64,000 nt of DNA from Candidatus Poseidoniales archaeon (GTDB taxonomy: Archaea; Thermoplasmatota; Poseidoniia; Poseidoniales; Thalassarchaeaceae): the NCBI GenBank assembly GCA_003602515.1, contig QQSB01000003.1, positions 15,388 to 79,387 of the forward strand, written 5' to 3'. A program made the translations under genes and the position numbers. Positions 12,414 to 53,096 of the stretch are shown here, one piece after another. Position 1 is the first letter of the stretch, and the number at the start of each line of letters is the position of its first letter. The notes beneath the pieces are model-generated. The model searched no databases. It was not told the DNA's origin and saw nothing but the letters and a program-made list of their open reading frames with translations.

Positions 12414-13058
12414 CTAGTTGAAATCACTGATTGCCTTCTTTACAACCTCTGACTCGGCTCTTTTTAGGTGCTCACCGATGGTGCTCCTAGCTATTCCCAA
12501 CTGATCTGCAAGTTGTTTCAGCGTGACTTCCGAGCCATCTTCGTAGTAACCCCTACGAACGGCTAACTCTAGAACCTCCCTCTGCTTTTCCGTTAGAAAA
12601 TCCAAGCTCTTCTCAGATCCATTCTTTATTGTCTGGACGCTTATGGTATCGGGTGGCATCACAGTTCTGACGAATTCCAAGAAACTTCGTATAGAGCTTG
12701 AAATTCCAAAGATTCTGAACTCCAATCCATTTTTCGAGTCAATTCCATATGGCGGATAGACATAGATGTTTGATAACTCAACTGCAGATATTGCCAGAGG
12801 ATGAGTACAACGAATACTGACAAGAATTCCGCTTTCGTCTTCTTCGTGTTTCTCTAAAACCTCAAAGCTGTGTAATTCTGAGATTTCGGAAAGTTCACGC
12901 CCTTCCTTAATTTTCAATTCGACTAGTTGGGTAACACCATCGGATTCTGTTGAAAGATGACCAAGAACCTCAATTCTTTCACAGATTCCCATCAGCGTGT
13001 CGATCTCGTCAATTCCGCTCAGAGAGGAAACCTTCCATCTCAGGAGAACCTTCCTCAT
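12414..13058 (-). CDS. HTH_10 (Bat/DmsR-type) transcriptional regulator
   Basis: C-terminal LTEKQREVLELAVRRGYYEDGSEVTLKQLADQLGIARSTIGEHLKRAESEVV, a typical archaeal HTH_10. ATG at 13058 is preferred because a TATA box lies about 25 nt upstream. The longer track ORF overlaps the subtilase gene. Confidence 0.7.
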   Translation of the reverse strand: MRKVLLRWKVSSLSGIDEIDTLMGICERIEVLGHLSTESDGVTQLVELKIKEGRELSEISELHSFEVLEKHEEDESGILVSIRCTHPLAISAVELSNIYVYPPYGIDSKNGLEFRIFGISSSIRSFLEFVRTVMPPDTISVQTIKNGSEKSLDFLTEKQREVLELAVRRGYYEDGSEVTLKQLADQLGIARSTIGEHLKRAESEVVKKAISDFN

Positions 13059-13075
13059 GGCTTTGCAAGTTCTTT

Positions 13076-13090
13076 TTTCTATATAATTGC
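13076..13090 (-). promoter_or_regulatory. Candidate TATA box for the HTH_10 regulator (leaderless)
   Basis: The minus strand reads GCAATTATATAGAAAAAAG, centred about 25 nt upstream of the ATG at 13058, within the 37-nt gap after the subtilase stop. Confidence 0.4.
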
Positions 13091-13095
13091 CAACC

Positions 13096-14325
13096 CTAGT
13101 TCCAGTATGCTTCTCGAATATCCTGATTCGACTCCATACAAATCTCGACATCAAATGGCCTCTGTTGCATTGCATAACTACCATTCAGATGCTCAACAAT
13201 TGGCTTGACGTTACTTTCGTTCACAACCCCCCAGCCGACCTGTGTACACGGGGCTACGGGAGACATCGGAGTTGTCCCTGAAAGAGGGTCCCAAGTTGTG
13301 AAGGAGGGATACCAAGCAGAGAGATTCAGAGCATCTCGCAGATCGTCATTTGTCAACGAGAAATTTGTTCCATTCACTATCAATCCCATTCTTAGATTCG
13401 GATCCGCTCCAGAAGACAGGTCCCCAAATTCCGATCTTAGACTCTCCAAGACCTCCGAGAGTAGGCCAGCAGTCCTAGGCGTGGCAAAAGAAGTTCCCGA
13501 TGTCCAATGGTAGCCGTCGATATCATCGTGATTGGGCAAGAACTGTGTCCAGTCTGCCGCTATGTCGGGGTATGAGCCGCTCATAGTCTCCTTCTGATCG
13601 TCGTCTTCTTCGGCGTAGCCGGAAATTCCAATGCTCCAAGGAGGACCTGCAGTGGAGTCTTGAATTGCCGGAGAAGGGGAGTTGTCAGCGGCCCCAGTGT
13701 GAATTTTCTTTTCTTGAACCACGGCCACCTTTGTTGCATCCTCAATCCCTGGCACTGGAACTGAGAGGATCGGGCCGAAACTAGTTGTAATAATGTCAAC
13801 CAAAGGTTGGTTCGCCGCTGCTAGAACAGCAGCATCGCTGAATCCCTCGACGAAGAAAATTACCGCATCAGGATTTGCGTTAAGAACCGCTCCGGTCACT
13901 GCCGTCCCATGCCCGTCACTAGGATCATCCAGAATCGGAATCTCGGTGTTATCATCGGGGGTGGTTCCGATTATTCTGGAACCTCTAAACCAAACAATAT
14001 CTCCAGATTCTATCACGTCCCAGCAACTTTCCTTGTCAGCCTCATACCTCTCTTGCCAAGTACCATTACTGGTGATATTGCACACCATGTTCACCCCTAG
14101 TTGATCAAGAAGCCACTGCGGGTAAGACTCGTTCATCGAGAAGTGATCATGATAGACGTTGATGCCCGTGTCGATTGGCGCTACCACGCTAAATGAACCG
14201 AATCCTTCGATAACCTCAGTTTCTGTTTCCATTCCCTTGTCCTGCCCACCAAGACAACCAACAAGGGACACCGATAGCATCAGCACGGCAATGAGAGCAG
14301 CGACAGTCTTCACAATGTCCCGCAA
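13096..14325 (-). CDS. Subtilisin-family (S8) serine peptidase, lipoprotein
   Basis: Lipobox LSVSLVGC. Catalytic motifs VVAPIDTGIN (Asp), DGHGTAVTG (His) and SGTSFATPRTAG (Ser). The start codon is TTG. Confidence 0.85.
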   Translation of the reverse strand: MRDIVKTVAALIAVLMLSVSLVGCLGGQDKGMETETEVIEGFGSFSVVAPIDTGINVYHDHFSMNESYPQWLLDQLGVNMVCNITSNGTWQERYEADKESCWDVIESGDIVWFRGSRIIGTTPDDNTEIPILDDPSDGHGTAVTGAVLNANPDAVIFFVEGFSDAAVLAAANQPLVDIITTSFGPILSVPVPGIEDATKVAVVQEKKIHTGAADNSPSPAIQDSTAGPPWSIGISGYAEEDDDQKETMSGSYPDIAADWTQFLPNHDDIDGYHWTSGTSFATPRTAGLLSEVLESLRSEFGDLSSGADPNLRMGLIVNGTNFSLTNDDLRDALNLSAWYPSFTTWDPLSGTTPMSPVAPCTQVGWGVVNESNVKPIVEHLNGSYAMQQRPFDVEICMESNQDIREAYWN

Positions 14326-47800: not shown

Positions 47801-48790
47801 ATGTGCCAGCCATCAGTCATGCCGAGTGCCTTTGCTCCCGGGAAATGTATCCTCTTCGGGGAGCATGCTGTTGTATTCGGTCATCCAGCCGTGGCAGTAG
47901 CTATCGATCAGGGCGTGAGAGTCAGTATTGAGGAGTCTGATATATGGAAACTGGAGGGTTCATCATTCGTCCCATCAAGGCATCCTCACATCTCACATAT
48001 TATTCAGAACATCTTCCAGTACTCTGGTCCTCCTCTTGACATTGACGTGGATAGCTCTCTTTTCTCAGCCGCAGGTATGGGCTCTTCTGCAGCACTATCG
48101 AATGCATTTGGAGCTGCAATGCAGGCTCACCTAAAGCCGGACTCGGAACTCGATGCTGTGGAACTGGCTAAAATCGCTCATTCGGCCGAGGCAACCGCCC
48201 AGAAGGGAAGGGCGAGCCCAACGGATACAGCAACTAGTGCTCTTGGAGGGTGCGTAGTCGTTTCCGGCTCCGAAGTGCCAGGAACAAGGCATGTTTTCGA
48301 TACTAGCCTGGAAACACCAGAGGGATCCAGAGAATGGTCGATCAATACCGTTGACATCCCCCAGGGAATTGGAGATGCTTGGCTAGTGATTGGGTACTCG
48401 GGAACTGGTTCTCCAACAGGAAGGATGGTCGCCAAGGTTGCAAAACTAATTTCCGAAGCTCCAGAAAGGATGGAGGAGCTGGAATCAATTGCAAACATTA
48501 CTAGGGCAGGATTAGCTGCTCTCTCAGCAGGAAACCTAGAGGGATTGGGAATGGCCATGGATGCCTGTCACGAAAGTCTAAGAAAACTGGAAGTAAGTAG
48601 CAGTAAGCTAGACCAGATGGTCAACTCAGCAAGGACCCACTCACTTGGGGCAAAACTGACCGGAGCCGGAGGCGGGGGTTGCATGGTGGCCCTCACGCAC
48701 GATCCTACCAGGGTTTCCGAGGCGATTGAAGTCGCTGGAGGCAGACCATTGATGACCAGACTGGGTGCACAAGGGGTCAGATTCGTATAA
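47801..48790 (+). CDS. mvk: Mevalonate kinase
   Basis: APGKCILFGEHAVVFGHPAVAVAI, GHMP motif SAAGMGSSAALS and KLTGAGGGGCMVAL. Confidence 0.85.
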   Translation: MCQPSVMPSAFAPGKCILFGEHAVVFGHPAVAVAIDQGVRVSIEESDIWKLEGSSFVPSRHPHISHIIQNIFQYSGPPLDIDVDSSLFSAAGMGSSAALSNAFGAAMQAHLKPDSELDAVELAKIAHSAEATAQKGRASPTDTATSALGGCVVVSGSEVPGTRHVFDTSLETPEGSREWSINTVDIPQGIGDAWLVIGYSGTGSPTGRMVAKVAKLISEAPERMEELESIANITRAGLAALSAGNLEGLGMAMDACHESLRKLEVSSSKLDQMVNSARTHSLGAKLTGAGGGGCMVALTHDPTRVSEAIEVAGGRPLMTRLGAQGVRFV

Positions 48791-48828
48791 CGAGAGTTCT
48801 GAAATCACATCTGTAAAAACAATATCTC

Positions 48829-48848
48829 CTTATATAACCATTTATAAG
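48829..48848 (+). promoter_or_regulatory. Candidate tandem TATA boxes for tbp (leaderless)
   Basis: CTTATATAACCATTTATAAG ends about 22 nt upstream of the ATG at 48870, in the gap after the mvk stop. Confidence 0.4.
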
Positions 48849-48869
48849 GGAAATGATGGTCGACAACCT

Positions 48870-49586
48870 ATGCTCAGCGATGAAGAAAGACTCACCGTAG
48901 TGAATGTAGTAGCCTCTACCAGAGTAGCGGAGGAACTGGACCTCCCGGACATAGCCATCCAGTTGAACTGCGAATACGAACCAGAGCAGTTCCCGGGCGT
49001 GGTTTACAGGGTAGTGGAACCCAAGCTTGCAATCCTTATGTTTAGGTCAGGCAGGGCTGTTTGCACCGGTGGAAAGAACGAGGACAACATCCAGACTGGC
49101 ATTGAGAGGATGATCGGTGATCTCAGAAACGCGGGTATCGAAACTTGGGAACTGAAGGATGTGGAGATAGAAGTCCAGAATATGGTCGCAACCTACTCCC
49201 TCTTCTATCCAGAGGACTATGGTGAAGTCGCTAGAATGGACGATATCAACACCAAGGTCATTGACGAGGATGGCGGCGGAATTAGAGCAGCCACCGACGA
49301 GGAGGTAGAGAATGAGGACCCTAGAATCAGGGGAATCCTACAGGGTGAGCCACTAGCAGCCCTTCCCAGGAAACTCAATCTGAACAACCTGACCTTCCAC
49401 CTTCCCTTCGACAAAGTCGAATACGAGCCAGAGCAGTTCCCTGGCCTAATCTACAGACTTGACTACCCTCGTGTGGTATGCCTGATATTCGGTAGCGGCA
49501 AGATGGTGATTACCGGAGCTAGGCACAAGGACGAGATTCTCGAGGCAGTTGAACAGATCAAAGACGAGCTAGCAGATCTGCTGTAG
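48870..49586 (+). CDS. tbp: TATA-box-binding protein with an insertion in repeat 2
   Basis: Two TBP repeats: VVNVVAS...EYEPEQFPGVVYR...LMFRSGRAVCTG and VQNMVAT...EYEPEQFPGLIYR...LIFGSGKMVITG. ATG at 48870 is preferred; the upstream part of the track ORF overlaps mvk. Confidence 0.85.
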   Translation: MLSDEERLTVVNVVASTRVAEELDLPDIAIQLNCEYEPEQFPGVVYRVVEPKLAILMFRSGRAVCTGGKNEDNIQTGIERMIGDLRNAGIETWELKDVEIEVQNMVATYSLFYPEDYGEVARMDDINTKVIDEDGGGIRAATDEEVENEDPRIRGILQGEPLAALPRKLNLNNLTFHLPFDKVEYEPEQFPGLIYRLDYPRVVCLIFGSGKMVITGARHKDEILEAVEQIKDELADLL

Positions 49587-49628: not shown

Positions 49629-52600
49629 ATGTACGGGCCCTCCAGAGCCATCATGATGATTGCAGCCTTGGCATTGGCACCGTTAGCCTGCTCGCTGACC
49701 GTGGCAGACCTTTCAAACTCCGATTCATACACGGCAGAATCATCGGTGCAAGCCAGAAATACGGGTTCCGTCGATGTACCTAACTGGAGAGTCAACGACA
49801 ACTGGATGTACGACGGGTACCTGGATGTTGTTGATTTCGTAGCAGACTCTGGCGTCTCCACGAATGCCGAGACCCTCGAGGGATCGCTCGATAGGACGGT
49901 GTCAGACATATATCTGTACGATATCGATGGTAATGAGACCCTCGTCTACGAAGTAGAGTCGATAGGCGCTTACGAGTCAGACGGCGTCATTGAGATAGAC
50001 GGAACCAATGGCTGCCTATACCTGGATATGCAGACTACTGAAATAATTCGCGTCTCGGACTTGGCTACTTACTCTCAGGATGTCACGATTGACGTATACT
50101 TCGACCCTTCCTTCTGGGGTAACTGCGTCGATTGGCTTAGGCAGGATATCGGTGAGCTGAGTGTGGACAACACGTTCCGACCCCCTCTGGAGAACTACGA
50201 CTTCCCTCTCTCTGTTGGGGAAACTTGGGGAATGGACTACAGCCAGGAAACCGAATACAGTGGCTCCAGCAATTACGTAGACATCCCCGATGACACTAGT
50301 GACACAAACTCCACCAGTTGGGCTGTCGTTAGCCAGGGTGGCTCCGGAGTCGCATACCCTGGTTGCTACCAGTCATTTAACGTGACATCATACGACTCGG
50401 ACGGTGATGAGGTCGGATTCAACTGGTACTGCCCGGCAGTTCGAGGCGAGGTGAAGAGCTCTATCGAACAGGCATTCGGATTCATCGCAGTCCATGAGTT
50501 GGTCAGTTACCAACCTGTTACTAGAGGGAAGGAGATTTCGATAGACATCGAATACCCACTTTCGCCTACTGGAATCGAGATATCCGCATGGCTTAATATC
50601 ACGGAACAGGGGCAAGCAGTCGCAAACCAAGATCTTCAGTTCCGCTATGAATCCGAGGATGAGGTACAGAACGTAACTACGGATGAAAATGGCTCCTACC
50701 ATTTGACCTTCAATTCTGGAGACAACCCCGATGATACCCATGGCTCAGGAGAACTCGGCAGCCACGGTTTGATCGCTTGGACATACCTTGGCGGCAATGC
50801 CCTGGGAACAAAGTCCCTGGTAATAGACTCAGAAGTTCATGAGATAGACTTGGTCGCCAGATCTTCTGCAGTAACTGTTCAGAGGCTGCGTCCATCAAGT
50901 GGAAACGAGGTTACACTCGACTCGTCCATTGGATTTACGGCCATTTCTGGAGATATCCTAACCTTCTCAGTACCGGTCTCGAACCGTGGTTTGATCCAGT
51001 CGCCATACTCCACGATCGTCATCAGCGCCCCAGACGGATCAGAAGTTTCAGGCACGGTTCCCCCACTGGGGAGTCTGCAGGAATCCCGGGTCCTTGTCAA
51101 CTGGACGGTCCCCGAATCCCAGCCTTTCGGAAACGTCTACCTGTTCTTCGAGGTTGACCCCTTGGAGGAAATAACTCAGGAAGGCAACAGATCAAACAAC
51201 CAAGGATCGTTCGTTCTCTATGTAGGGGGCCTCCCAGTCTCGGATCTCTCCATGCTAAATGAGACTCTGACTAATGAGGCGGTGACATTCGATGCAAGCG
51301 CGTCTTACGACTCAGACGGGGGGAGCGTAGACTGCGAATTCAATATCGAAAAGGTCGATGGGTCTTATGCAGAGTTATCAGATGATGACTGCATTGTCGA
51401 ATGGTCTTGGGTAGACGATGGTGTCTTCGCAGTTTCAGTCCTAATCACGGACGAGGAGAGCGACCAGTCATCTATCGAGTCTACGATTTCGGTCATCAAT
51501 CGCCCTCCTGTAATCACTCTCGGATCTAATTCTGATGAGGTAGTGGTCACTACGCCAATCACATTCTCCGTGACAGACATTAGTGACAATGACACGAGGA
51601 ATCCTTCCGCACCTGCCGAGTTACTGTGGGGAGCAGTTTGCTCAGAGGGACAGGTCGGCCAGTCATGCACTGTTATCCCAATGGTCGAGGGATTGCTGAC
51701 CATCGAAGTCATGGCAACCGATGATGATGGCGCAACCACCGTCGCGGATTACTCCGTCCAAGTAACCAACATTGCCCCCTCAAACCCAGTCGCAGAACTC
51801 TACCGAGGGGAGGAGAGACTCTTCCCTGATAGCCGTGGAGTCTTCACAGTCTACGAAGGCGATGAAATTACATTCTGGGGCCAGGCAGATGATTCGTCAA
51901 ACGACATCGAAAGCCTCGTCCACGTATGGAAGCCAGATGCAGAGTATCAACCCGATATTAACTCAACCAGTACCGGCTTCAGGAGCACCCTCTCTGGTGT
52001 CTCGTACAACACATCAGGAATGCACCTGGCCACTCTACAGGTCTTCGATGATGACGGAGAGGGGACCGAGGTCCTGATAGTGCCAATACAGGTGGTCAAT
52101 GTAATCCCGGAGATTACTCCAATGACAACCATCCTTGGCGATCTAGAGGAGGACCAAGAGTTCACCATCAGCCCAATAGTTTCTGATACCGGAAATGACT
52201 CAGATTCTCTAGTACACTGCTTCGATCTAGACCCCTCAACCGATCATGACTCGGATGGTGTTCCCGAGAATGACTGCGACGTTCAGTCGGCCACCCTGGT
52301 TCACTCATGGCCGGACTCTTATTCAGCACCCGATTCGATACTTTTCCATGTCACCGACGATGACGGGGCATCAGAATCGATGGAGTTCACTTTTGTCGTC
52401 GTCAATTCGCCTCCAGAGGCATTCGCATCAGCAAGTGTCGCTAATCCAACAGAGGGAGACTCGGTCATACTATCGGCCAACGGTACAATCGACTCACAGG
52501 CAGACATGGACTCCTTGGTTTTCCAGTGGGACATCGACATCACCTTCGACTCGGATGGGGACGGAAACCCTGGAAACGATATCGACTATACGGGCAGATG

Positions 52601-53096
52601 GATAGAGTTCTCGTATGACTCAGGAGGGCCGAAAAAGGCACAGCTTACCGTGCTAGACGATAGCTCCAGTCACTCAGTAATCATGGACTTGGAGGTAGCA
52701 GAAAAACCCATCACGATTTCAGGCACCATCCAATCAAACATCGGTCCGATAATCATGGTGCTTGCAGCAATCTCATTAGTCGCTTGGACCTTCCTAAGAC
52801 CAAATCCTAGAGGTGAGAAAGAGATGTCCAAAATCCCCCATGAGATCGACATTGACGCTGCATTTGACGAGCCCGCGGAACCATTGGTGGACACTAGTCC
52901 GTTCGAATCGCCCCCCCGGGCCGACCAACACCTAGAGGACCCAACGATTCTGGAGGGGCTGGAAGATGTCCTCGAAGAGCTCACTGGGAGCAAACAAGAG
53001 GTGGATCCAGCTTCAGATTTGCCCTCGGCACCCAATCTCTACGAGAAAAAGGCCGATCTTGATCTCGCAGATATAGAAGCACTCTTTGAGGAGTAG
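49629..53096 (+). CDS. Large secreted PKD-repeat surface protein with a C-terminal TM anchor and acidic cytoplasmic tail
   Basis: Signal peptide. Multiple PKD-like repeats (FDASASYDSDGGSV, VMATDDDGATT, VFDDDGEGTE, HVTDDDGASE). A CARDB-like segment (VPVSNRGL). TM helix IGPIIMVLAAISLVAWTFL. Confidence 0.75.
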   Translation: MYGPSRAIMMIAALALAPLACSLTVADLSNSDSYTAESSVQARNTGSVDVPNWRVNDNWMYDGYLDVVDFVADSGVSTNAETLEGSLDRTVSDIYLYDIDGNETLVYEVESIGAYESDGVIEIDGTNGCLYLDMQTTEIIRVSDLATYSQDVTIDVYFDPSFWGNCVDWLRQDIGELSVDNTFRPPLENYDFPLSVGETWGMDYSQETEYSGSSNYVDIPDDTSDTNSTSWAVVSQGGSGVAYPGCYQSFNVTSYDSDGDEVGFNWYCPAVRGEVKSSIEQAFGFIAVHELVSYQPVTRGKEISIDIEYPLSPTGIEISAWLNITEQGQAVANQDLQFRYESEDEVQNVTTDENGSYHLTFNSGDNPDDTHGSGELGSHGLIAWTYLGGNALGTKSLVIDSEVHEIDLVARSSAVTVQRLRPSSGNEVTLDSSIGFTAISGDILTFSVPVSNRGLIQSPYSTIVISAPDGSEVSGTVPPLGSLQESRVLVNWTVPESQPFGNVYLFFEVDPLEEITQEGNRSNNQGSFVLYVGGLPVSDLSMLNETLTNEAVTFDASASYDSDGGSVDCEFNIEKVDGSYAELSDDDCIVEWSWVDDGVFAVSVLITDEESDQSSIESTISVINRPPVITLGSNSDEVVVTTPITFSVTDISDNDTRNPSAPAELLWGAVCSEGQVGQSCTVIPMVEGLLTIEVMATDDDGATTVADYSVQVTNIAPSNPVAELYRGEERLFPDSRGVFTVYEGDEITFWGQADDSSNDIESLVHVWKPDAEYQPDINSTSTGFRSTLSGVSYNTSGMHLATLQVFDDDGEGTEVLIVPIQVVNVIPEITPMTTILGDLEEDQEFTISPIVSDTGNDSDSLVHCFDLDPSTDHDSDGVPENDCDVQSATLVHSWPDSYSAPDSILFHVTDDDGASESMEFTFVVVNSPPEAFASASVANPTEGDSVILSANGTIDSQADMDSLVFQWDIDITFDSDGDGNPGNDIDYTGRWIEFSYDSGGPKKAQLTVLDDSSSHSVIMDLEVAEKPITISGTIQSNIGPIIMVLAAISLVAWTFLRPNPRGEKEMSKIPHEIDIDAAFDEPAEPLVDTSPFESPPRADQHLEDPTILEGLEDVLEELTGSKQEVDPASDLPSAPNLYEKKADLDLADIEALFEE

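What the first reader, a model, noticed from the sequence alone, without database searches (positions are those of the whole stretch)
49200..49370. TATA-binding protein carries a ~57-residue acidic insertion inside its second repeat
Seen in sequence:
- In repeat 1 the distance from VVNVVAS to EYEPEQFPG is 18 residues.
- In repeat 2 the equivalent distance (VQNMVAT to EYEPEQFPG) is 75 residues.
- The extra segment is FYPEDYGEVARMDDINTKVIDEDGGGIRAATDEEVENEDPRIRGILQGEPLAALPRK.
- Both flanking repeat cores are intact and the reading frame is continuous.

Established knowledge: archaeal TBPs are compact (~180 aa) and almost perfectly symmetric. The S1-H1 region of each repeat contributes to the saddle and stirrup that contact DNA and TFB.

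Inference: an acidic loop at this position could act as an autoinhibitory DNA mimic or as an interaction surface. Either would be a lineage-specific elaboration of the basal machinery.
Basis: partly seen in the sequence, partly recalled or inferred. Interest (0 to 1): 0.6.

Follow-up and report, generated by a model that had tools for sequence, protein, structure and literature searches.

The report
TBP with a folded extra subdomain
The TATA-binding protein of this marine archaeon (Marine Group II, Poseidoniales) really does carry about 54 extra residues inside its second repeat; the segment is conserved and length-variable across the whole order and is predicted to fold into a small subdomain, so one of the most compact and symmetric proteins of the basal transcription machinery has been elaborated in one of the ocean's most abundant archaeal groups.

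Summary
The tbp gene is window 48870-49586 (+), 238 aa. Residues 112-168 (nt 49203-49373) sit between strand S1' and helix H1' of repeat 2, where other archaeal and eukaryotic TBPs have 3-4 residues.

It is not an artefact. All 160 Poseidoniales genome loci fetched carry an insert at this site. About 200 distinct variants were seen, including in single-cell and long-read assemblies.

The insert is nested:
- A conserved frame ([HFY]YPEDYxG ... GEPLAxLPR[KR]) is present in every member.
- The inner part varies. It is 23 aa in all 15 loci named Poseidoniaceae or Poseidonia, 56-57 aa in 18 of 20 named Thalassarchaeaceae or Thalassarchaeum (as in this window), and up to 73 aa.

Nonsynonymous change is held down (pN 0.12 against a saturated pS of about 0.8), though about three times less strictly than in the core.

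AlphaFold2 predicts a folded mini-domain (beta-hairpin, short acidic helix, strand; pLDDT about 90), not a disordered loop. It matches no Pfam family or PDB sequence.

The DNA-mimic idea is untested and weakened, because short forms are barely acidic. My best reading is an accessory protein-interaction surface next to H1'; its partner is unknown.

I found no description in the searchable literature. It is a new variant of a known kind.

The parts
48841..48847 (+). TATA box (TTTATAA) of the tbp promoter, 23-29 nt upstream of the ATG. This implies a leaderless or very short-leader mRNA.
   Evidence: Sequence. TTTATAA/TTTATATA is conserved at the same distance in Poseidoniales loci while the flanks diverge.
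48870..49586 (+). tbp gene, 238 aa plus stop codon.
   Evidence: Pfam PF00352 x2, E 6e-52. PDB TBPs E 3e-44. The model superposes on M. jannaschii TBP with TM 0.93 and rmsd 1.6 A.
48891..49130 (+). Repeat 1 (aa 8-87), canonical: S1, H1, S2-S4, start of H2. The S1-H1 loop has normal length.
   Evidence: N12, F41, F58 and T66 are present.
49164..49202 (+). Strand S1' of repeat 2 (aa 99-111, EIEVQNMVATYSL), carrying N104.
   Evidence: Alignment to 2z8u. AF2 strand 101-110.
49203..49226 (+). N-terminal frame of the insert (aa 112-119, FYPEDYGE). The [HFY]YPEDYxG motif is shared by all Poseidoniales TBPs.
   Evidence: P114 is invariant. Y113, E115, Y117 and G119 are at least 90% conserved in 125 sequences. 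Alignment A1.
49227..49340 (+). Variable inner module (aa 120-157). Its parts are ARMDD, a beta-hairpin 125-132/138-140 with a G-rich tip, the acidic helix 143-147 (TDEEVE), a variable acidic stretch, and strand 154-156 (RIRGI). It is absent or truncated in the 23-31 aa forms.
   Evidence: AF2 secondary structure is identical. Length classes are. pN is 0.137 against 0.03-0.04 in the core.
49341..49373 (+). C-terminal frame of the insert (aa 158-168, QGEPLAALPRK). The GEPLAxLPR[KR] motif is shared by all Poseidoniales TBPs.
   Evidence: G159, L162, P166 and R167 are at least 90% conserved. pN is 0.057.
49374..49583 (+). Rest of repeat 2 (aa 169-238): H1' (171-177), S2' with EYEPEQFPG, the C-terminal stirrup, S3', S4' and H2'.
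   Evidence: F190, F207, T215, E186 and E188 are present.

Best explanation
This is the TATA-binding protein of a Marine Group II archaeon (order Poseidoniales, Thalassarchaeaceae-type). A lineage-specific accessory subdomain has grown out of the S1'-H1' loop of its C-terminal repeat.

Shown:
- The TBP core is intact and canonical, with all DNA-contacting Asn, Phe and Thr residues and the stirrup glutamates.
- The insert is translated and under purifying selection.
- It is present in every Poseidoniales TBP examined.
- It has a strongly conserved frame (YPEDYxG ... GEPLAxLPRK) around an inner module of variable length.

Predicted: the frame forms a short stalk leaving the end of S1'. The inner module folds into a compact beta-hairpin, short acidic helix and strand unit that projects from the saddle. 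It makes the two otherwise near-identical halves of archaeal TBP structurally different.

Inferred: it acts as a protein-protein interaction surface beside helix H1', used in assembly or regulation of the initiation complex. The partner could be TFB, RNA polymerase or TFE, or an unknown lineage-specific factor. The conserved acidic helix (A/P-T-D/E-E-E) would be the likely contact for a basic partner. It is probably not an intramolecular DNA mimic.

The inner module is accessory rather than essential. Abundant Poseidoniaceae lineages keep only the 23-aa frame.

The confidence given (0.5) is for the whole statement including the inferred interaction role. For the shown and predicted parts alone (a real, conserved, folded lineage-specific subdomain) I would put it at about 0.9.
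For: - Identity and intact core.
- Taxon: the 80 best genome matches are Poseidoniales or Thalassarchaeaceae MAGs and single-cell genomes. L001 and L004 are listed at 100% identity; L004's insert lacks one Gly.
- Universality: all 160 loci carry an insert, with lengths 23 (42 loci), 29 (5), 31 (2), 56 (59), 57 (48), 65 (3) and 66 (1). Further 58-73 aa forms occur in the protein database. The 255-aa form is named Candidatus Poseidoniaceae.
- Restriction to this clade: among the 150 nearest 50%-identity clusters, only MGII-type ones and two unplaced short-frame proteins (P0130, P0158) are expanded at this site. In 62 of 64 diverse archaeal TBPs the spacing is 26-29; the other two only show a spurious extra motif hit.
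- Selection: pS is about 0.8 (saturated) everywhere. pN is 0.12 in the insert, 0.057 in the C-frame and 0.03-0.04 in the core.
- Fold: with an MGII-only alignment the insert was the best-predicted part of the protein (pLDDT 70-89, while much of the core, including S1, H1 and H1', was below 50). This indicates covariation within the insert itself. With canonical TBPs added, mean pLDDT was 92.7, pTM 0.81, and the insert scored 89-95 with the same secondary structure.
- No solved TBP has anything at this position. TM normalised to the query is 0.68, against 0.93 normalised to the target.
- The surface is used for partners elsewhere. In yeast TBP, R171E and G174E weaken the contacts with Spt8 and Spt3 (PMC10136053). 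By my own alignment from memory of the yeast sequence, these map 2 and 5 residues after the insert's C-terminal junction.
Against: - No partner was identified.
- I could not retrieve a Poseidoniales TFB to look for a matching change.
- Repeated shortening to 23 aa shows that the inner module can be lost without loss of viability, which also fits a dispensable decoration.
- The model is a prediction. Its alignment has limited depth for the insert (about 45 informative sequences).
- The yeast analogy concerns eukaryote-specific partners that archaea lack.
Confidence: 0.5

Rival explanations
1. Autoinhibitory DNA mimic. The acidic module folds back onto the concave DNA-binding face, or competes electrostatically with DNA, until TFB or promoter DNA displaces it. 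This would resemble TAF1 TAND1 or the Mot1 latch in eukaryotes.
For: The 56-57 aa forms have a net charge of -6 to -7 and 26% D/E, about twice the local proteome average. An acidic T-D/E-E-E helix is conserved in the long forms. The insert leaves the end of a strand whose other residues (N104) face DNA.
Against: The 23-31 aa forms, which make up 49 of the 160 loci, have a net charge of only -1 to -2 and lack the acidic helix. Mimicry therefore cannot be the conserved role of the insertion. The segment is predicted to be a rigid folded unit, not a flexible tether. The TAF1-TBP fusion structures 4b0a and 6e16 did not match better than plain TBP in the fold search (TM to query 0.65 against 0.68); this is weak evidence. 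The TBP core itself is more acidic in absolute terms (net -15).
Confidence: 0.12
2. Tolerated loop expansion with no specific partner. A surface loop grew, acquired a stable fold, and is now kept only because disrupting it would destabilise TBP folding or solubility. Length changes are near-neutral.
For: There is large length variation (23 to 73 aa), with indels concentrated at the hairpin tip and after the acidic helix. pN is about three times higher than in the core. The inner module is missing from whole lineages. There is no similarity to any known domain.
Against: The frame motifs are as conserved as core residues across the whole order. The inner module keeps recognisable motifs (ARMDD, IR-A/P-T-D/E-EE, R-I/K-R-G) between the two families although synonymous sites are saturated. 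In other archaea this loop length is essentially invariant, so the site is not generally permissive.
Confidence: 0.25
3. Specialised paralogue. The insert-bearing protein is one of two TBPs, and a canonical TBP elsewhere in the genome performs general initiation.
For: Many archaea, haloarchaea for example, have several TBPs (established knowledge). I could not scan whole Poseidoniales genomes.
Against: There is no second TBP in the 64-kb window. The insert-bearing form occurs once per locus in every Poseidoniales genome hit, and its clusters are very large, seen on up to 723 contigs. None of the 20 nearest other TBP clusters looked up (19 without an insert at this site, plus short-frame P0158) carries a Poseidoniales name or is abundant; they have 1-14 members. 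The gene has a strong conserved TATA box.
Confidence: 0.1
4. Artefact or removable element: assembly chimera, intein, or intron.
For: None beyond the unusual length.
Against: The same insert is found in 160 independent genome loci, including single-cell genomes (AG-, AH- isolates) and long-read MAGs. Codon-level purifying selection acts in this frame. There are no flanking repeats. The junction residues (F/H/Y ... K|L) lack the Cys/Ser start and His-Asn plus Cys/Ser/Thr end of inteins, and 57 aa is far below intein size (read from the sequence).
Confidence: 0.01

Closest known systems
Canonical archaeal TBP (M. jannaschii 2Z8U, S. acidocaldarius 1MP9, P. woesei 1PCZ/1AIS)
   Same: It has two PF00352 repeats, the same fold (TM 0.93 and rmsd 1.6 A to 2Z8U), the same DNA-contacting residues, and a canonical C-terminal stirrup.
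   Different: It has 54-56 extra residues, predicted folded, between S1' and H1' of repeat 2 only. It has no long acidic C-terminal tail. The pseudo-twofold symmetry is broken.
Regulator-docking surface at H1' of eukaryotic TBP (SAGA Spt3/Spt8; yeast R171, G174)
   Same: It is the same place on the fold. The insert ends 2-5 residues before the equivalents of R171 and G174, whose mutation weakens Spt8 and Spt3 binding (PMC10136053; the mapping is my own alignment from memory).
   Different: In eukaryotes the surface is a bare helix bound by separate proteins. Here extra protein is built in cis. Archaea lack SAGA and TFIID.
In-cis or in-trans DNA mimics of TBP (TAF1 TAND1, Mot1 latch, acidic C-terminal tails of some archaeal TBPs)
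   Same: The long forms have acidic character and lie close to the DNA-binding sheet.
   Different: The insert is predicted folded and internal to the core fold rather than a terminal flexible segment. Acidity is not conserved in the short forms. No structural similarity was detected. Function is untested.
Other lineage-specific TBP elaborations (the variable eukaryotic N-terminal region; linker inserts in archaeal TBPs P0182 and P0211)
   Same: They are clade-specific additions to a conserved core and match no known domain.
   Different: Those lie outside the repeat folds, at the N-terminus or in the H2-S1' linker. This one interrupts a repeat between two secondary-structure elements.

Membership tests
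TATA-binding protein (PF00352, TBP-like fold) | Two tandem TBP repeats | tested here: met
   Pfam PF00352, 2 stretches, E 6.1e-52, 173.9 bits against a cut-off of 22.9.
TATA-binding protein (PF00352, TBP-like fold) | Saddle fold with S1-H1-S2-S3-S4/5-H2 in each repeat | tested here: met
   The AF2 model has pLDDT 92.7. Foldseek gives TM 0.93 and rmsd 1.6 A to 2z8u, and the 44 best hits are all TBPs. This rests on a prediction.
TATA-binding protein (PF00352, TBP-like fold) | DNA-contacting residues: central Asn and Thr, and two Phe pairs that kink the TATA box | tested here: met
   N12, T66, N104 and T215, plus F41, F58, F190 and F207, are present. The Asn and Phe positions are invariant in Poseidoniales. 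The residue roles come from established knowledge of yeast and Arabidopsis TBP-DNA structures.
TATA-binding protein (PF00352, TBP-like fold) | Binds and bends TATA DNA and recruits TFB | not testable with these tools
   The stirrup residues E186 and E188 are conserved. Biochemistry is needed.
Intein | Cys/Ser/Ala at the first residue, His-Asn at the end followed by Cys/Ser/Thr, and a Hint domain of at least about 130 aa | tested here: not met
   The insert starts with F, H or Y and ends with R-K followed by L. It is 23-73 aa long and has no Pfam hit.
TAND1-like DNA mimic of the TBP concave surface | The acidic and hydrophobic segment occupies the DNA-binding face of TBP | not testable with these tools
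The TAF1-TBP fusion structures were not preferred in the fold search. Acidity is absent from the short forms.

The most novel reading that the evidence does not exclude
The subdomain is a built-in regulatory handle on TBP. It would be either a docking site for a Poseidoniales-specific transcription regulator, or a switch that gates TFB or DNA binding. In effect it would be an archaeal, in-cis counterpart of the TAF/SAGA-type control of TBP that is thought to be a eukaryotic invention. Its rapid length evolution would reflect co-evolution with that partner.
Probability: 0.2. Interest if true: 0.75.

Novelty: new variant of a known kind. Interest (0 to 1): 0.55.

Why it matters
TBP is one of the most conserved and compact proteins shared by archaea and eukaryotes. 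In the archaeal and eukaryotic TBPs sampled here, the length of the S1-H1 loop hardly varies.

Poseidoniales are among the most abundant archaea in the surface ocean, are uncultured, and almost nothing is known about their transcription. A conserved, folded, asymmetric addition to their TBP points to a lineage-specific feature of initiation-complex assembly or regulation.

It also gives a concrete target that can be expressed recombinantly. Natural short, medium and long variants already provide a deletion series.

If the subdomain turns out to bind a regulator or to gate DNA or TFB binding, it would be an archaeal example of direct control at the level of TBP.

Tried and rejected
- A second TBP in the window: none (tblastn).
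- TFB in the window: none among the 30 ORFs scanned against Pfam. TBP/TFB co-variation could therefore not be examined.
- Similarity of the insert to anything known: no PDB sequence hit at E up to 10, only noise in Pfam, and no similarity to the TBP core itself. There are no flanking DNA repeats that would suggest a mobile origin.
An MGII-only alignment gave a poor core. Adding canonical TBPs from a third protein search fixed this.
- Placing the short-frame proteins P0130 and P0158 and the insert-free neighbour P0144 taxonomically failed. Genome scans found no close relatives, and they are not viral. P0131, the nearest insert-free relative, was not scanned; its cluster look-up gives no taxon. 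Whether Marine Group III carries the insert is therefore unknown.
- Literature: no paper links Marine Group II or Poseidoniales with TBP or a TBP insertion (the 3 papers have unrelated titles and were not opened). The crystallography papers for 1AIS and 1D3U are not held.
- Looking for a docking surface through MGII-specific core substitutions was uninformative, because such substitutions are spread over the whole protein.
- Geometry of the insert relative to DNA and TFB could not be worked out, because no model or PDB coordinates are accessible.

Full report
**The gene.** The ORF list gives a 273-aa frame at 48765-49586. The real gene starts at the ATG at 48870. Hundreds of homologues begin MLSDEERL at that codon. 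A TTTATAA box lies 23-29 nt upstream (48841-48847) and is conserved at that distance in Poseidoniales loci whose flanks have otherwise diverged. The product is 238 aa. Pfam finds the TBP repeat twice (E 6e-52), and the best PDB sequence match is M. jannaschii TBP (E 3e-44).

**The observation.**
- The extra 57 residues are aa 112-168, nt 49203-49373.
- The alignment to 2z8u stops just after S1' and resumes at H1'.
- Relative to the nearest insert-free relative (P0131, 183 aa, 58% identical) the net gain is 54 residues. The first three residues (FYP) correspond to the normal loop (alignment A1).
- The core is intact. N12, T66, N104 and T215, the Phe pairs F41/F58 and F190/F207, and the stirrup glutamates E186 and E188 are all present.

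**Organism, and exclusion of an artefact.**
- The 80 best genome matches are Marine Group II MAGs and single-cell genomes labelled Poseidoniales, Thalassarchaeaceae or Thalassarchaeum, at 86-100% identity over the full 238 aa.
- A second scan brought in Poseidoniaceae.
- All 160 loci carry an insert at this site.
- In all, 202 distinct insert sequences were seen across loci and database proteins.
- There are no flanking repeats, and the junctions are not intein-like.
- In 32 gap-free Thalassarchaeaceae-type genes, synonymous differences are saturated everywhere (pS 0.77-0.87). Nonsynonymous differences are 0.12 in the insert, 0.057 in its C-terminal frame, and 0.03-0.04 in the two core regions.
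- The segment is therefore translated and constrained, about three times less tightly than the core.

**Anatomy.** The insert is nested.
- Every Poseidoniales TBP has the frame [HFY]YPEDYxG ... GEPLAxLPR[KR]. P114 is invariant, and Y113, E115, Y117, G119, G159, L162, P166 and R167 are at least 90% conserved.
- The part between the frame halves varies in length:

| Form | Total insert length | Where seen |
|---|---|---|
| xDKFT | 23 aa | 42 loci, including all 15 named Poseidoniaceae or Poseidonia |
| ARMDDHTLKIKE-type | 29-31 aa | 7 loci |
| ARMDDxNTxVID-(G-rich turn)-IRAATDEE-(acidic)-RIRGI | 56-57 aa | 107 loci, including 18 of the 20 named Thalassarchaeaceae or Thalassarchaeum; this window |
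| longer versions | 58-73 aa | indels at the hairpin tip and after the acidic stretch |

- The 73-aa form is in a 255-aa protein named Candidatus Poseidoniaceae.
- Both families contain long forms with the same motifs. A long ancestral insert with repeated shortening is therefore the more economical history. This is inference.

**Restriction to the clade.**
- A search of 1.84 billion cluster representatives found 4683 TBP-family clusters.
- Among the 150 best, only MGII-type clusters and two unplaced 201-aa proteins with a short frame (P0130, P0158) are expanded at this site.
- Other oversized TBPs (P0182, P0211, P0121) have their extra sequence in the H2-S1' linker instead.
- In 62 of 64 TBPs from Thermoplasmatales, methanogens, DPANN and other archaea, the S1-to-motif spacing is 26-29 in both repeats. 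The remaining two only show a spurious extra motif hit.

**Structure.**
- With an alignment of MGII sequences only, AlphaFold2 modelled the near-invariant core poorly. The insert scored pLDDT 70-89, which points to covariation within the insert.
- With 57 canonical TBPs added, mean pLDDT was 92.7 and pTM 0.81, and the insert blocks scored 89-95.
- Both runs gave the same elements in the insert: strand 125-132, strand 138-140, helix 143-147 and strand 154-156. H1' lies at 171-177 in the second run; in the first run that region had pLDDT below 50 and was not modelled as a helix.
- The core superposes on 2z8u with TM 0.93 and rmsd 1.6 A. No solved TBP covers the extra quarter of the model.
- The insert matches no Pfam family or PDB sequence, and it does not resemble the TBP core.
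- It is best described as a small folded orphan subdomain, not a disordered acidic loop.

**Charge.**
- The window's insert has 15 D/E and 7 K/R.
- Long forms average a net charge of -6 to -7, the 66-73 aa forms -3 to -4, and the 23-31 aa forms -1 to -2.
- The surrounding proteome is itself acid-skewed, with 13.7% D+E against 8.1% K+R.
- Acidity is therefore a property of the inner module in some lineages, not of the insertion as such.

**Mechanism.**
- What is shown: an intact TBP with a conserved, constrained extra subdomain, predicted to be folded, on the C-terminal repeat only.
- What is inferred: the subdomain serves as an interaction surface.
- The site is solvent-exposed in free TBP.
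- It is immediately N-terminal to H1'. In yeast TBP, the H1' residues R171 and G174 are where mutations weaken Spt8 and Spt3 binding (PMC10136053). By my own residue-by-residue alignment from memory, they map to N170 and N173 here, 2 and 5 residues after the junction.
- The conserved acidic helix is a plausible contact for a basic partner.
I therefore do not claim proximity to TFB or DNA.

**Rival readings.**
- The DNA-mimic reading is weakened by the nearly neutral short forms and by the predicted rigidity, but it is not excluded for the long forms.
- A tolerated decoration remains a serious rival because the inner module has been lost in whole lineages.
- A specialised-paralogue scenario is unlikely but was not formally excluded. 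The evidence against it:
 - There is no second TBP in the window.
 - None of the 20 nearest other TBP clusters looked up (19 insert-free, plus short-frame P0158) is abundant or named Poseidoniales.

**Novelty.** Full-text searches linking Marine Group II or Poseidoniales with TBP or TATA-box terms, and archaeal TBP with lineage-specific insertions, returned nothing relevant. This is a new variant of a well-known protein family. It is of moderate to good interest for archaeal transcription and readily testable with recombinant protein.

Noticed in passing
P0121 (metagenomic protein, 452 aa): A Thalassarchaeaceae-type TBP that carries, besides the S1'-H1' insert, a further segment of about 214 aa between W93 and V98, in the H2-S1' linker. 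The segment has no Pfam match. It is a single sequence and could be a chimeric assembly or a second insertion hot spot.
   Followed up: partly
P0182 (317 aa) and P0211 (257 aa), representatives: Other archaeal TBPs have 75-135 aa inserts in the linker between the two repeats, with no Pfam match. Their lineages are unknown.
   Followed up: partly
P0140 (272 aa) and P0132 (376 aa): These TBP-family proteins have three and four repeats instead of two. In P0140 the first two repeats are near-identical copies.
   Followed up: no
P0130 and P0158 (201 aa each): Two divergent TBPs (44-53% identical to the window's) have only the short frame at the same site. P0158 also has an extra GPKGPDGW in the N-terminal stirrup. 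They are absent from the genome and viral collections, so their lineage is unplaced. They may mark the outer boundary of the insertion.
   Followed up: partly
window 48830-48849: Two TATA-like boxes sit in an inverted arrangement (CCTTATA-N8-TATAAGG) upstream of tbp. Only the proximal TTTATAA is conserved across the order. The distal box occurs in close relatives only. It could be a site for autoregulation by TBP.
   Followed up: partly
L091 (Thalassarchaeaceae-labelled MAG CB9_323.24) and L124, L127 (labelled Salinimicrobium, Yoonia): L091 carries the 23-aa form typical of Poseidoniaceae. Two bacterial-labelled MAGs contain Poseidoniales tbp contigs. Mis-binning or mislabelling is likely.
   Followed up: no
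window 49629-53096 (+): A 1155-aa ORF lies directly downstream of tbp. It has an N-terminal signal-like segment, many Asp/Ser/Thr-rich repeats and a C-terminal hydrophobic anchor. It is probably a large surface protein and was not analysed.
   Followed up: no
window 12414-13184 (-): A 256-aa protein has a C-terminal HTH_10 (bacterio-opsin activator-type) DNA-binding domain. It is a candidate transcription regulator in the same window.
   Followed up: no
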